A DNA stretch of 64,000 bases, from assembly GCA_036785375.1 (NCBI GenBank), contig JAWMAR010000115.1, positions 4,154,001 through 4,218,000 on the forward strand. The letters are read 5' to 3'. Origin of the DNA: Leucoraja ocellata (lineage: Eukaryota). The position numbers are program-made. Of the stretch, positions 48,001 to 64,000 are shown one piece after another; within the stretch, counting starts at the first letter, position 1; the number at the start of each line of letters is the position of its first letter.

Positions 48001-51000
48001 ATTTAGTTGCTGTACGGGCATGGAGGTGGAAGCAATCTATTCCTGTACACCAAGGCTTTGTTTTGTTCTGAGATGTACAGAAAAATATCAGAACGAAACT
48101 ATGCTTTCTTGTACATATAGAAAATTGACAGCATGGCAGCACCCATTGGGCTGGATGAGCCTTTTTCATGTCTGCATCCACAGCCAAGGTCAATGTTGGC
48201 TGGCATGGAGGCTACATTTTACCTGCTGGGTTGTTATATCAATTCAGAGTAGAATTCACAATCAACCACTCTGTATCAAGAGCTACATTATGGTGTGACT
48301 GGATATAGACACAGTAGTGACCTCATTTCACAGATTTAGTCTTTTTTTCTTTAAAAGTGTTTCACTGCCATGGTTGTAATTTAAATATATTTAAGCAAAA
48401 AACATGGTAGTGAAACACTTTTAAAGAAGTCTGCTTTTTGTTCATTTTTCCTATAAGAAACAGTAATATTTATTTTAATTCCTGCTTTAGTCAGTTTATT
48501 TTCATAATGAATAGCTTCATCGAAACTTATTATAGGAAGAGGTTTAGTAACTCTGATCTTCCATTTAGAATAAGGAAATAATTTAGCACATCACATTGTT
48601 TTCTTTATTTCAATGTGACATGTTGAACATACTGAGAAATCATACAATTGCAAAAAGGTTTTTTGGCACTGGGTTTACATTATAAATTATTTGTTTCATT
48701 CTTACAGAAAAAAAGACTAAATCTGTGAAATGAGGTCACAACTGCGCAGCAACATACCAGCTACTTTGAAGTTACATTTTTTTTTCCTTCTATTTCCATC
48801 AGTTTTCACCCAAAGTAAGTGTTTTATTTTAACCAGTCAAAATCATATTGTTTTGTTTTATCATTATGTTTAATTAATTTATACACCTGTACTGAGAAAG
48901 CAACTTGGACTTTATTTCTTTATCTCTGCTCTGTTAAATGTCTTAGAAGAACACCACAAGCTAAAACAACTTGCATCTCCATGAAACAAAACGTAGGTAC
49001 TCAGCGGGTCAGTTAGCATTTGAACATGTTGAAAATCTAGCGGCTACCAAAAAGATGCTATGACTCTTTGGGCGACGGAGGAGACTACTCACGACCATAC
49101 AGGCGACACCCTGGTGGCCATGTGGCGACAGCTTAGTCGCCTGTAGTCGTCTAAAAAATAGCCTATGTGGGACAGGCCCTTTACACTTCCACATCTGTGT
49201 CTCCATCTCCGCTGACTCTCAGTCTGAGAAGGATTTCAACCCGAAACGTCACCAATTCCCTCTATCCAGAGATGCTTCCTGTCCCGCTGAGTTACTCCAG
49301 CATTTTGTGTCTATACCAGTATAAACCAGCGTCTGCAGCTCCTTCCCACACAATTAACAGTTAGATACAGGTGAGAGGGGTTTGATTGGTAGATGTATGG
49401 AGTAAGTGATAATGCTTAAAGGTGAAAAGTAGACAAAAGGGTGTCAAATAAAGAGAGAAGCGGAGTGAAATGTCAAGTTGGAGGGAAGGATATTTGCTCA
49501 AGATTCCAACATCTGCAGTTTCATTTTTGTATCTATCTCTTTGTTCATCAACACCATTCCCCACTATGCCTATTAATGAATGGTTTTCCATTGATCCTAC
49601 TGATAATGAAGTTTCATAGTGAAAACAGGATGCTCATTTCAGAATTACATTGAGAACACATCTTGTATTCCACATTTCACTCTTGGGTTGTATGTGGAAT
49701 AGTTTAAAATGTAACCTTAAAATCAAGATTAGAAACTATTGAAATTATTGTTCTACTGCTCCCCAGTAATATAAAGCCTGCAGAGGAGGACTCTTGAGCA
49801 TAACACAAAATTCTGGAAGAATTCTCAATGGGTTATGCAGCATCTGGAGAGGGAATAAACAGACCACTTTTAGAGTCAAGATCACTCATCAGACTTCTTC
49901 TGTTTGAAGAAGGGTCCCGACCGAAAATTACATCTGCCCCTTCCCTCCTCAGATGCTGCCGGACCCCCTGAGTTTCTCCAGCATAATAATAACTATGGGA
50001 TTAAGAAGTTGCTATTACACGTTAAAATGTTTCCATCATTCCTCTTTCTAACAGGAAATCCAAATCATTTTTATTTTTTGGATAAGAAAGGTGACTTTCT
50101 GTTAAAAGGTCCAGGTGGTTTTGGAAATGGCCGCGTGGTCTGGGAATGGAAACCACACACAGAGCAGGAAGTTCAGCTGCTTGGGACATTCCACAATGGG
50201 GGTTGGACCTGGTGGAACGCACAGTGGAAGGATGACAGCAACTTGTACCAAAAGATTGAACGGGATCCTGAAAACATCGACCTGAGAATTAGAAACCCTG
50301 CATTTCAAGTTGCAGGGTTGTTTACCTTGACTCAAACACAGCCGAGCAAGAAAATTCTAAAGCAGTATGAAATATTTGGGATCAAAGGTGAGTGGCAAAA
50401 TTCTTTGGGATCATATGGGTCTCATTAAGTAATTTGATTTTTAAAGATGGGATCGGCAGAGGGATTGGTGAGGGATTGGTCTGAAGAAGGTTCCCTATCT
50501 GAAACGTTGTCAGTCCATTTTCTTCCACAGGTTATCCCTGACCCATTTAATTCGTGTAGAACATTGATTTTTGCTTTATGATTCTTATATTGTCTATTAT
50601 AGAGTAGATTGGTTATCAGTGTTATCAGAGGAAAGATTTTGGACTCAAAGTTCTGTATCACTAATTTAAATCATTTGTACCTCAAAGCATTATAAGAGCA
50701 AGAGTAGGCTCTTTGGCCTTTTGCTCCTGCTTCACCATTCATTGTGATCTTGCTTGATCTACTACCTCAGCACCATTTTTCTAAACTATCCATTGATTCC
50801 CTCATATGCAGAAATCTATTTATCTCTGGTTTTAATGAACTCAATAATCAATGCCACTTTGGGTAGAGAATTGCAAAGATTTAAGTCTCTCTGCGCTACA
50901 GAAATTTCTCCTCATCTTAGCCCCGAAGAGCTCACCTGATTCCTGAATTGAGCATTCTTACAGGGAAAGCAGCCTCCATGCATCCATATTGTCTCGAAAA

Positions 51001-63000: not shown

Positions 63001-64000
63001 CCAAACATGATGCCAGGACCAAGTCTTATCTGTCTGCACATTATCCATATACCTCCATTCTCTGCATATCCATTCCCCACGTATCCATATGCCTTTCCAA
63101 AAGTGGCCAATATCATATCTGCCTCAACCACAGCCCCCACCGGGTGCATTCCAGGCACTCACCACCCTCTGTGTGAAATAACTTGACCCGCACATCCTGC
63201 CCCACTCGCTTCAAAGCTATGCCCTCTAGCAGTTGATTTTTCCATCCTGGGACAAAGGTTTTGACTGTCTACCCAAATCATGCCACTCATAATTTTATAG
63301 ATTTTGGTCAGGTCTCTCCACAGCCTCCAATGTTCCAGAGAAAGCAATCTGGTCTGTCCAACCTCGACCTGTAACTGATATCCCCTAATCCAGGCATCAT
63401 TATGGTAAATCTCATCTGCCCAGAATGAATGATAGAAATATTTAATTGCTGAACATTATTGGGAGTGAAACTGAAAATAACAAATTTGTCCTTCACAGTG
63501 AGACTACTTGCGAACATTTGGATCATCATAGTTTCAAGCTACTTGTTTCTTAAACTGATCGTTGCTTTTGGATTAATTTGCTGCTTGAAGGGGATAAAAA
63601 GAAGAAACAATTCTTGAAGTTTTCCGGAATGCCAAGGTGCCATTGACTTTGGCAAAGTGGATGTTCATTAATTAGATCATTTTGTATACAATTCAGAATT
63701 TAAAGGGATTATTACTGCTTGACACAAGGATACAATTGTTCAAAATTATGTGACATATTCTTCAACATTCAAACAGCTGTAATTTCTCTGCTCCCACTTT
63801 CACTGAAGGAATTATAGAGTTCATGTAGGACCATGGCTAACGACTAAACAATGCTCAAGACAAGAGCCCAATGTTGCTACATTTTCCACTGACCGTCACA
63901 AATATTTATTTTGGAGATTCGTAACTTCAGCGACGTCAGAATTCAATCTTTGTTTGTTTGTGAAAGTATTATCAGAAAAATTACTGGAAATATTACTGTG

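What the first reader, a model, noticed from the sequence alone, without database searches (positions are those of the whole stretch)
48730..63617. Eight-Ig CD4/LAG-3-like receptor with the membrane signature of an activating receptor
Seen: ten GT-AG, phase-1 exons join into an uninterrupted 875-aa protein (signal peptide, 8 Ig domains, TM, ~10-aa tail). Domains alternate V-like/C2-like; D4 and D8 have WxC in the F strand (NWRC, KWIC). Established: V-C2-V-C2 order with WxC in C2 domains is the hallmark of the CD4/LAG-3 family, whose described members have up to 4 Ig domains, an uncharged TM, and a signalling tail (CxC/CxH for Lck in CD4; FxxL and acidic repeats in LAG-3). This protein has none of those tail motifs. 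Inference: a distinct CD4/LAG-3-related (or related V-C2, e.g. DICP-like) receptor type of cartilaginous fish, twice the usual length, signalling through an adaptor. I do not know of a description of this architecture but cannot exclude one.
Basis: partly seen in the sequence, partly recalled or inferred. Interest (0 to 1): 0.9.

Follow-up and report, generated by a model that had tools for sequence, protein, structure and literature searches.

The report
Eight-domain Ig receptor gene, family unassigned
A real ten-exon gene encodes a membrane protein with eight antibody-like domains, made by doubling a four-domain block; its membrane anchor looks like that of an adaptor-dependent activating immune receptor, but no test ties it to CD4 or LAG-3.

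Summary
Ten exons (48730-63617, + strand) have 9 of 9 GT-AG, phase-1 introns and add up to 2628 nt, which is 875 codons plus a stop. The order is signal peptide, eight Ig exons alternating long V-like (110-114 aa) and short C2-like (86-90 aa), then one exon with the membrane span and a 9-aa tail.

D5-D8 is an old tandem copy of D1-D4, with 47-57% amino-acid identity and dN/dS of 0.26-0.63. The D4-D5 intron holds no leader-like or membrane-like exon. One eight-domain gene is therefore the best reading, but no RNA data were available.

The membrane span carries a central Lys. The tail has no Tyr and no CD4 or LAG-3 motif. This fits an adaptor-coupled activating receptor, by inference only.

CD4/LAG-3 kinship is not supported. 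WxC occurs only in D4 and D8. The family's V-domain start motif is not met (2-3 of 7 positions). Pfam, PDB sequence searches, Foldseek and ESM Atlas return only generic Ig matches. The large protein databases were closed, so kinship is not excluded either.

Verdict: an unplaced Ig-superfamily receptor of moderate interest.

The parts
48730..48814 (+). Exon 1: start codon and signal peptide (28 codons plus 1 base), donor gtaagt
   Evidence: It is the only leader-like ATG exon recovered by the scan used as a control.
50055..50387 (+). Exon 2, D1: V-like Ig domain without any cysteine, Trp-rich
   Evidence: No Pfam hit. ESM Atlas nearest clusters are V-set, score 0.92. AF2 pLDDT is only 52. Aligns with D3/D7 over the C-strand Trp and the E-F strands.
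52650..52919 (+). Exon 3, D2: C2-like Ig domain, Cys17-Cys69, F strand FVC (no WxC)
   Evidence: ig 23.4 bits, C1-set 21.7 bits, Ig_3 29.6 bits..
55145..55480 (+). Exon 4, D3: V-like Ig domain, Cys22-Cys95
   Evidence: V-set 15.3 bits, below the cut-off. Its partner D7 passes..
55559..55819 (+). Exon 5, D4: C2-like Ig domain, Cys18-Cys67, F strand NWRC. The intron before it is only 78 nt.
   Evidence: AF2 pLDDT 74 with strands A, A', B, C, C', E, F, G. Foldseek best matches are CD147 D1, PD-1 and CD160, all at E >= 3e-3.
57993..58337 (+). Exon 6, D5: copy of D1 (47% identity), no cysteine
58917..59189 (+). Exon 7, D6: copy of D2 (56% identity), F-strand Cys replaced by Trp (YTW)
60090..60428 (+). 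Exon 8, D7: copy of D3 (49% identity), V-set
   Evidence: V-set 41.2 bits against a cut-off of 26..
61907..62173 (+). Exon 9, D8: copy of D4 (57% identity), F strand KWIC, ends in three Lys
63499..63617 (+). Exon 10: membrane span (about 63504-63587), juxtamembrane Cys-Cys, 9-aa basic tail, stop at 63615-63617
   Evidence: It is the only phase-1 acceptor ORF with a hydrophobic 19-mer above 1.8 (Kyte-Doolittle) after D8: 1 of 1 found.
63552..63554 (+). AAA codon: Lys in the middle of the membrane span (residue 18 of the exon's 38 in-frame residues)
55820..57992 (+). D4-D5 intron (2173 nt): the junction between the two four-domain blocks. It holds repeats but no leader or membrane exon.
   Evidence: no homologue of E1 or E10. 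The only significant match is a repeat in inverse orientation; 0 leader-like exons, against 1 in the control region. One weak hydrophobic ORF at 56571 has a poor acceptor.

Best explanation
This is one gene for a type I membrane glycoprotein of the immunoglobulin superfamily. Its ectodomain is four V-like/C2-like pairs.

How it arose: a four-exon block (D1-D4) was duplicated in tandem inside the gene, or two neighbouring four-domain genes were fused with loss of the first gene's membrane exon and the second gene's leader exon. Both halves have since stayed under purifying selection.

How it most likely works: the protein ends in a membrane helix with a central lysine and a 9-residue basic tail that has no tyrosine and no known signalling motif, so it cannot signal by itself. 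The lysine most likely pairs inside the membrane with the aspartate of a small ITAM-bearing adaptor of the DAP12 or FcR-gamma type. That would make it the ligand-binding chain of an activating leukocyte receptor.

Shown: the exons, phases, duplication, domain types, membrane lysine and short tail.
Inferred: the single eight-domain transcript, adaptor pairing, leukocyte expression and activating function.

The ligand is unknown. The family is unassigned within the Ig superfamily.
For: - Gene model: 9 of 9 GT-AG phase-1 introns, all exons open, 875 codons.
- Duplication: partner exons match at E 1e-27 to 5e-33 with 47-57% identity. dN/dS is 0.26, 0.63, 0.34 and 0.56 for the four pairs.
- One gene rather than two: no homologue of the leader or membrane exon in the D4-D5 intron. 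That intron yields 0 leader-like exons, against 1 found in the control region.
- Domain types: V-set for D7 (41.2 bits). ig or Ig_3 for D2, D4, D6 and D8. Cys-Cys spacing is 73-74 residues in D3 and D7, against 49-52 in D2, D4 and D8. The D4 model has C2/I-type strands. D1 resembles V-set clusters.
- Membrane signature: Lys at 63552-63554 inside a 28-residue hydrophobic stretch, a 9-aa tail, and an in-exon stop with no usable donor before it.
- Principle that a charged membrane residue permits association with adaptors such as Dap12 in fish IgSF receptors: passages read in bioRxiv 10.1101/2021.06.11.448072 and PMC4016189.
- Precedent for D1a-D2a-D1b-D2b receptors formed by merging adjacent genes: the same preprint.
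Against: - No transcript evidence. All internal exons are symmetric (phase 1-1), so 2-, 4- or 6-domain isoforms by exon skipping are possible.
- Reading through the D4 donor meets a stop after two codons, so a secreted four-domain form is conceivable.
- Neither the adaptor nor its presence in this organism was shown.
- No ITIM-bearing paralogue and no other related Ig exon is present in the other 48.7 kb of the window. Activating receptors usually sit in clusters with inhibitory partners.
- A very short basic tail after juxtamembrane cysteines is also typical of non-signalling partners such as EWI proteins (PMC3939471, passages read), and of B7-type ligands (recalled).
- Three lysines lie directly outside the membrane span, which is unusual.
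- D1, D5 and D6 lack the canonical disulfide, and the D1 model is poor (pLDDT 52).
Confidence: 0.5

Rival explanations
1. It is a divergent third branch of the CD4/LAG-3 family. On this reading it is a doubled V-C2-V-C2 co-receptor-like molecule, possibly still binding MHC class II, that has exchanged the Lck or inhibitory tail for adaptor coupling.
For: - V-like/C2-like alternation.
- The unusual WxC in the F strand of D4 and D8.
- A V-like domain type without the disulfide; loss of the cysteine pair occurs in CD4/LAG-3 domains (PMC10768021, section 3.6 read).
- A small residue (Gly codon) at the D2-D3 and D4-D5 junctions.
- Extra duplication of V-C2 pairs has a precedent in zebrafish CD4-2.2 (same paper).
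Against: - WxC is absent from D2 (FVC) and D6 (YTW), so the hallmark 'WxC in both C2 domains' is only half met.
- The V-domain start motif is matched at 2-3 of 7 positions in D1, D3, D5 and D7.
- No CD4-specific Pfam hit in 0 of 9 peptides.
- PDB profile searches list CD4 only at E >= 1.5e-3 and through its D1. LAG-3 is not in the 60 rows listed.
- No CD4 or LAG-3 chain among the rows listed by Foldseek.
- The C2 exons are full-length (86-90 aa).
- The membrane span is charged and the tail has no family motif.
- No known neighbour gene was seen upstream.
Confidence: 0.12
2. It is a non-signalling surface ligand, adhesion molecule or membrane-organising partner. Examples would be a B7-like V-C repeat protein or an EWI-like tetraspanin partner. 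On this reading the short palmitoylatable basic tail ties it to the cortical cytoskeleton, and the membrane lysine serves another partner or none.
For: - The best PDB sequence matches are B7-family chains: CD276 at E 1.7e-7 for the C2 profile and PD-L1 at E 5e-4 for the V profile.
- D2 just reaches the C1-set cut-off (21.7 against 21). D4 has a weak CD80-like C2-set_2 hit (E 0.056), and ESM neighbours carry C2-set_2.
- A very short tail with many Ig domains describes the EWI family (PMC3939471).
- That human 4Ig-B7-H3 is a V-C-V-C exon-block duplication is recalled, not tested.
Against: - The CD276 score is the sum of four partial matches of 5-9 bits each (individual E 20-250), confined to the A-C strands of both its V and C domains. 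It is generic Ig similarity.
- No EWI tripeptide in 0 of 8 Ig exons (read).
- A lysine in the centre of a membrane span is rare outside adaptor-coupled receptors (established knowledge).
Confidence: 0.22
3. The main products are not eight-domain. The locus would give four-domain (or other) isoforms by exon skipping, by an unrecognised internal promoter and leader, or by read-through at D4. Alternatively, part of it is a decaying duplicate.
For: - All Ig exons are phase 1-1, so any of them can be skipped in frame.
- Read-through of the D4 donor stops after two codons.
- One hydrophobic ORF lies in the D4-D5 intron at 56571.
- D6 has lost its F-strand cysteine.
Against: - The ORF at 56571 has a poor acceptor and no similarity to exon 10.
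- 0 leader-like exons in that intron.
- All eight Ig exons are intact with consensus splice sites, and dN/dS is below 1.
Confidence: 0.2

Closest known systems
CD4/LAG-3 family (V-C2-V-C2 MHC class II co-receptors)
   Same: Alternating V-like and C2-like domains built by block duplication. WxC in the F strand of one C2 type. A V-like domain without the disulfide. One domain per phase-1 exon.
   Different: Eight domains. WxC is missing from the other C2 type. The V-domain start motif is not met. The membrane span is charged. The tail has no Cx(C/H) or (F/Y)xxL(D/E). No specific sequence or fold match was found with the tools open here.
Activating forms of fish multigene IgSF receptors (DICP D1a-D2a-D1b-D2b, NITR, skate MDIR)
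   Same: Two alternating domain types repeated by duplication or fusion. A charged residue in the membrane span and a short tail, read as adaptor (Dap12-type) coupling.
   Different: The DICP-specific cysteines are absent, and D1 and D5 have no cysteine at all. MDIR domains are CD300/pIgR-like V domains only. No gene cluster and no inhibitory partner is in the window. The passages read report DICPs from bony fishes and coelacanth only.
B7 family, especially 4Ig B7-H3 (CD276)
   Same: V-C pairs repeated, a short tail, and the best-scoring PDB sequences.
   Different: The match is a sum of weak A-C-strand hits. Only D2 touches the C1-set cut-off. D1 and D5 are Cys-less. The membrane span carries a lysine.
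EWI family (IGSF8, PTGFRN, IGSF3, CD101)
   Same: Many Ig domains, a single membrane span and a very short basic tail.
   Different: No EWI motif. The domains alternate in type and size. No sequence match was listed.
Shark UrIg2
   Same: A shark IgSF gene enlarged by duplication of pairs of adjacent exons, with gene conversion between copies (PMC12227049, passages read).
   Different: UrIg2 is one VJ domain followed by C1 domains. It is not related in sequence to this gene.

Membership tests
CD4/LAG-3 | V-C2-V-C2 order of Ig-like domains | tested here: met
   Long V-like exons (110-114 aa; V-set for D7; Cys spacing 73-74) alternate with short C2-like exons (86-90 aa; ig/Ig_3; Cys spacing 49-52).. 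The order occurs twice in this gene.
CD4/LAG-3 | WxC in beta-strand F of both C2 domains, D2 and D4 (PMC10768021, sections 3.1 and 3.6) | tested here: not met
   D4 has NWRC and D8 has KWIC. D2 has FVC and D6 has YTW. Only one of the two C2 types carries it.
CD4/LAG-3 | Start-of-V-domain motif (I/V)4 (F/Y)5 G9 (A/V)12 L14 P15 C16 | tested here: not met
   The best match is 2, 2, 3 and 3 of 7 positions in D1, D3, D5 and D7. The C2 exons match no worse, at 3-4 of 7.
CD4/LAG-3 | Overall sequence similarity (family members are each other's top database matches) | tested here: inconclusive
   No CD4-specific Pfam model in 0 of 9 peptides at E <= 1. In PDB searches CD4 appears only at E >= 1.5e-3 via its D1, and LAG-3 is not in the 60 rows listed. 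The Foldseek rows hold none. Shark sequences and the large protein databases were not available.
CD4/LAG-3 | Cytoplasmic Cx(C/H) (CD4) or (F/Y)xxL(D/E) (LAG-3) | tested here: not met
   The 9-aa tail has neither.
CD4/LAG-3 | Location in the conserved LAG3-CD4 genomic region | tested here: inconclusive
   In the 48.7 kb upstream, 10 large ORFs were scanned. Four are retroelement and six have no Pfam hit. No related Ig exon is present. Only 383 bases lie downstream.
CD4/LAG-3 | Continuous beta-strand from the V domain's G strand into the C2 domain's A strand | not tested
Adaptor-coupled activating IgSF receptors | Type I topology with a signal peptide and an Ig ectodomain | tested here: met
Adaptor-coupled activating IgSF receptors | Basic residue within the membrane span | tested here: met
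   Lys codon 63552-63554, central in a 28-residue hydrophobic stretch.
Adaptor-coupled activating IgSF receptors | Short tail without ITIM, ITAM or ITSM | tested here: met
   The 9-aa tail has no Tyr.
Adaptor-coupled activating IgSF receptors | Physical, charge-dependent association with DAP12, FcR-gamma or a similar adaptor | not testable with these tools
   No adaptor sequence of this organism is at hand. This needs an experiment.
DICP | DICP-specific conserved cysteines in the D1 and D2 domains (bioRxiv 10.1101/2021.06.11.448072, passages read) | tested here: not met
   D1 and D5 have no cysteine. D2, D4 and D8 have only the canonical pair.
EWI family | Conserved Glu-Trp-Ile motif in the Ig domains (PMC3939471, passages read) | tested here: not met
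   0 of 8 Ig exon peptides contain it (peptides).
B7 family | IgV followed by a C1-like IgC, with specific sequence similarity | tested here: inconclusive
   D2 scores 21.7 bits on C1-set (cut-off 21). D4, D6 and D8 have no C1-set hit. The CD276 E of 1.7e-7 is a sum of four matches of 5-9 bits. PD-L1 scores E 5e-4.

The most novel reading that the evidence does not exclude
This is an ancient, previously unrecognised third lineage of the CD4/LAG-3 family. It would be doubled to eight domains and rewired to an ITAM adaptor through a membrane lysine. It would then be an activating, possibly MHC class II-directed, receptor of innate-type leukocytes that complements the Lck-coupled CD4 and the inhibitory LAG-3.
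Probability: 0.08. Interest if true: 0.8.

Novelty: new member of a known kind. Interest (0 to 1): 0.35.

Why it matters
If the model and the adaptor coupling hold, this adds a germline-encoded activating receptor with an unusual (V-C2)x4 ectodomain. Two of its V-like domains lack the disulfide and are rich in tryptophan.

It is also a clean example of a receptor lengthened by duplication or fusion of a four-exon block, with signs of partial gene conversion between the copies.

It would matter much more if a real link to CD4/LAG-3 were shown. The tests possible here give no support for that link.

Tried and rejected
- Pfam on the 9 exon peptides gave only generic Ig models. D1, D5 and the membrane exon had no hit.
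- PDB sequence searches with six profiles (A1-A6) gave only generic IgSF matches. A1 (D1/D5) gave one chance hit at E 1.2. The CD276 hit dissolved into four weak partial matches.
- AF2 on single exons: D1 pLDDT 52 and D4 pLDDT 74. Foldseek against PDB gave no match at E <= 0.001 for either model. The D1 search is unreliable because the model is poor.
- ESM Atlas (2 of 2 calls) gave V-set-like clusters for D1 and I-set/Ig_3/C2-set_2 clusters for D4. No named family was closer.
- Profile-profile comparison inside the protein: D1/D5 against D3/D7 gave E 3e-3, and D2/D6 against D4/D8 gave E 7e-5. The control, D1/D5 against D4/D8, gave E 0.54. This is only weak support for an older V-C2 duplication.
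- Search for neighbour genes: 10 large ORFs were scanned. The 58 non-repeat ORFs of 70 aa or more listed looked non-coding and were not sent.
- Rfam found nothing in the window.
- Literature searches found no description of this architecture. Supplements were closed, so sequence lists in the supplements of PMC10768021 could not be checked.
- Not done: the joined protein was not searched or folded. The bacterial/archaeal genome collection was not scanned, as it is irrelevant. The complex predictor was not used, because no partner sequence was at hand.
- Considered and rejected: a SLAM/CD2-type reading (Cys-less V plus C2). D3 and D7 keep the disulfide, the C2 exons have one disulfide only, and the tail has no tyrosine motif. 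Its only support is a 2B4 hit to a low-confidence model.
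Full report
**Observation**

The region 48730-63617 on the + strand holds ten exons.
- Exon 1 (48730-48814) starts at an ATG and encodes a 28-residue hydrophobic leader.
- Eight Ig exons follow: D1 50055-50387, D2 52650-52919, D3 55145-55480, D4 55559-55819, D5 57993-58337, D6 58917-59189, D7 60090-60428 and D8 61907-62173.
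- Exon 10 (63499-63617) ends in TGA.

All nine introns are GT...AG with pyrimidine-rich acceptors. Seven of the nine donors read gtaagt or gtgagt. All introns are phase 1, and every internal exon is a multiple of three. Continuity rests on the phases and on the nine junction codons.

**A doubled four-domain block**

Each Ig exon finds one partner in the window by tblastn:

| Pair | Identity | E-value | dN/dS |
|---|---|---|---|
| D1/D5 | 47% | 1.7e-28 | 0.26 |
| D2/D6 | 56% | 2.6e-27 | 0.63 |
| D3/D7 | 49% | 4.5e-33 | 0.34 |
| D4/D8 | 57% | 8.7e-28 | 0.56 |

No further related exon appears in the other 48.7 kb; the best other hit has E 0.81. DNA similarity between the halves is confined to the exons, a few flanking bases and dispersed repeats. 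With dN/dS below 1 in all four pairs, both halves have been kept as coding sequence.

The 5' halves of the C2 exons have lower synonymous divergence than the other exon halves: pS 0.29 and 0.21, against 0.37-0.77. This suggests partial gene conversion.

Junction codons are conserved between the halves: Val after each V-like exon, and Gly, Gly or Asp after C2-like exons.

**One gene or two?**

In either case D4 would keep a donor and D5 an acceptor, so those sites do not decide the question. What does bear on it:
- The 2173-nt D4-D5 intron has no homologue of exon 1 or exon 10.
- A scan for ATG-initiated, hydrophobic, phase-1 leader exons found none there. The same scan recovered the real exon 1 in its control region.
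- One hydrophobic ORF at 56571 has a poor acceptor and no similarity to exon 10.
- After D8, exon 10 is the only phase-1 acceptor ORF with a membrane-like segment.

A single eight-domain product is therefore the best reading from sequence. All Ig exons are symmetric, so shorter isoforms cannot be excluded. Read-through at the D4 donor stops after two codons. No RNA data were available.

**Domain types**

| Exon | Pfam result |
|---|---|
| D7 | Passes V-set (41.2 bits, cut-off 26) |
| D3 | V-set below the cut-off (15.3 bits) |
| D2, D4, D8 | Pass the generic 'ig' model |
| D2 | Also just reaches C1-set (21.7 bits against 21) |
| D6 | Below all cut-offs |
| D1, D5 | No hit |

- Cys-Cys spacing is 73-74 residues in D3 and D7, against 49-52 in D2, D4 and D8.
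- The D4 model (pLDDT 74) has the strands A, A', B, C, C', E, F and G of a C2/I-type domain.
- D1 and D5 have no cysteine and are rich in tryptophan (6-7 Trp each). They still align with D3 and D7 at the C-strand Trp and through the E and F strands. Their nearest ESM Atlas clusters are V-set, with score 0.92 and 167-168 shared features, just under the level typical of the same family. The D1 model is poor (pLDDT 52).
- D6 has lost the F-strand cysteine.
- There are eight N-glycosylation sequons in D2, D4, D6, D7 and D8.

**Membrane end**

Exon 10 encodes a 28-residue hydrophobic stretch with a lysine in its middle (codon 63552-63554). Two adjacent cysteines sit at the inner edge, followed by a 9-residue basic tail without tyrosine. 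The stop lies inside the exon and no usable donor precedes it.

This is the pattern that fish and mammalian Ig-superfamily families use for adaptor-coupled activating forms. I read passages on this in bioRxiv 10.1101/2021.06.11.448072 and PMC4016189. I saw only the abstract of PMC8102735, on how the charged residue selects FcR-gamma rather than DAP12. That a central lysine points to DAP12-type adaptors is established knowledge that I recall; I did not test it here. Whether this organism has such adaptors was not checked.

**Family**

From PMC10768021 I read sections 3.1 (first part), 3.2 and 3.6, plus passages. According to it, the hallmark is WxC in strand F of both C2 domains, a shared motif at the start of the V domains, the tail motifs and the genomic location. 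Results here:
- WxC occurs in D4 and D8 only. D2 has FVC and D6 has YTW.
- The V-start motif is matched at 2-3 of 7 positions in the four V-like exons, which is no better than in the C2 exons.
- The tail has neither motif.
- No CD4-specific Pfam model appears for any of the 9 peptides at E <= 1. The accession names of those models are recalled.
- PDB profile searches return generic Ig matches. The V profiles hit PD-L1, MXRA8, pIgR and contactin. The C2 profiles hit CD276, PD-1 and NITR. CD4 appears only at E >= 1.5e-3 and through its own D1. LAG-3 is not among the 60 rows listed in any search.
- The top hit, CD276 at E 1.7e-7, is a sum of four partial matches of 5-9 bits.
- Foldseek gave no match at E <= 0.001 and no CD4 or LAG-3 chain in the rows listed.

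CD4/LAG-3 kinship is therefore unsupported.

Other families also fail a defining feature:
- DICP membership fails on the DICP-specific cysteines.
- EWI membership fails on the EWI motif.
- A B7 link is inconclusive.

**Surroundings**
- A Ty3/gypsy-type LTR retrotransposon lies at 17163-22485, with LTRs 91.4% identical. It carries gag, protease, RT, RNase H, integrase and chromodomain in at least three frames.
- An RNase H ORF lies on the minus strand at 16109-17122.
- A short dispersed repeat gives 24 hits in the window, five of them in introns of this gene.
- A 200-base N run lies at 40894-41093. It was left alone.
- Rfam found nothing.
- No neighbour gene was recognised.

**Verdict**

This is a real and intact gene for an eight-domain Ig-superfamily membrane protein made by doubling a four-domain block. 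It is most likely the ligand-binding chain of an adaptor-coupled activating receptor (confidence about 0.5). Its family is unassigned. I found no description of this architecture in the searches. Supplements and protein databases could not be consulted, so an existing automatic annotation or description cannot be excluded.

Noticed in passing
window 17163-22485 (+): A Ty3/gypsy-type LTR retrotransposon with chromodomain integrase. The LTRs at 17163-17652 and 21977-22485 are 91.4% identical. Gag, protease, RT, RNase H and integrase lie in at least three different frames, so the copy is interrupted. It explains the GC-rich stretch at 18-22 kb.
   Followed up: partly
window 16109-17122 (-): A 337-codon ORF with an RNase H domain (E 1e-10) lies directly beside the LTR element, on the opposite strand. 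It is probably a fragment of another retroelement.
   Followed up: no
window, 24 sites, e.g. 49181-49360, 56007-56122, 57149-57274, 59275-59407, 61267-61443: A short dispersed repeat of about 130 bases occurs in both orientations and often as inverted pairs. Five copies lie in introns of the gene. No Rfam family matches it.
   Followed up: partly
window 52650-52780 with 58917-59050, and 55559-55682 with 61907-62030: The 5' halves of the C2-like exons, with 11-15 bases of the intron before them, are 81-88% identical between the two blocks. They have low synonymous divergence (pS 0.29 and 0.21), while the 3' halves are much more diverged. This suggests partial gene conversion, or a conserved face opposite a diversifying face.
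   Followed up: partly
window 55481-55558 versus 60429-61906: The intron between D3 and D4 is only 78 bases, while the equivalent intron between D7 and D8 is 1478 bases.
   Followed up: no
window 55820-55827: Reading through the D4 donor meets a stop after two codons. A retained intron would therefore give a secreted four-domain product.
   Followed up: no
window 50057-50386 and 57995-58336: D1 and D5 have no cysteine but carry 6-7 tryptophans each, several of them in the region between the C and E strands that the model could not place. The role of this Trp-rich loop is unexplained.
   Followed up: no
window 43000-45000: A moderately GC-rich stretch (0.47-0.51) holds long non-repeat ORFs of low complexity with no Pfam hit. 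It could be a CpG island or the 5' end of an unrecognised gene.
   Followed up: no
window 40894-41093: A run of 200 N, flanked by retroelement-like ORF fragments. It was left as it is.
   Followed up: no
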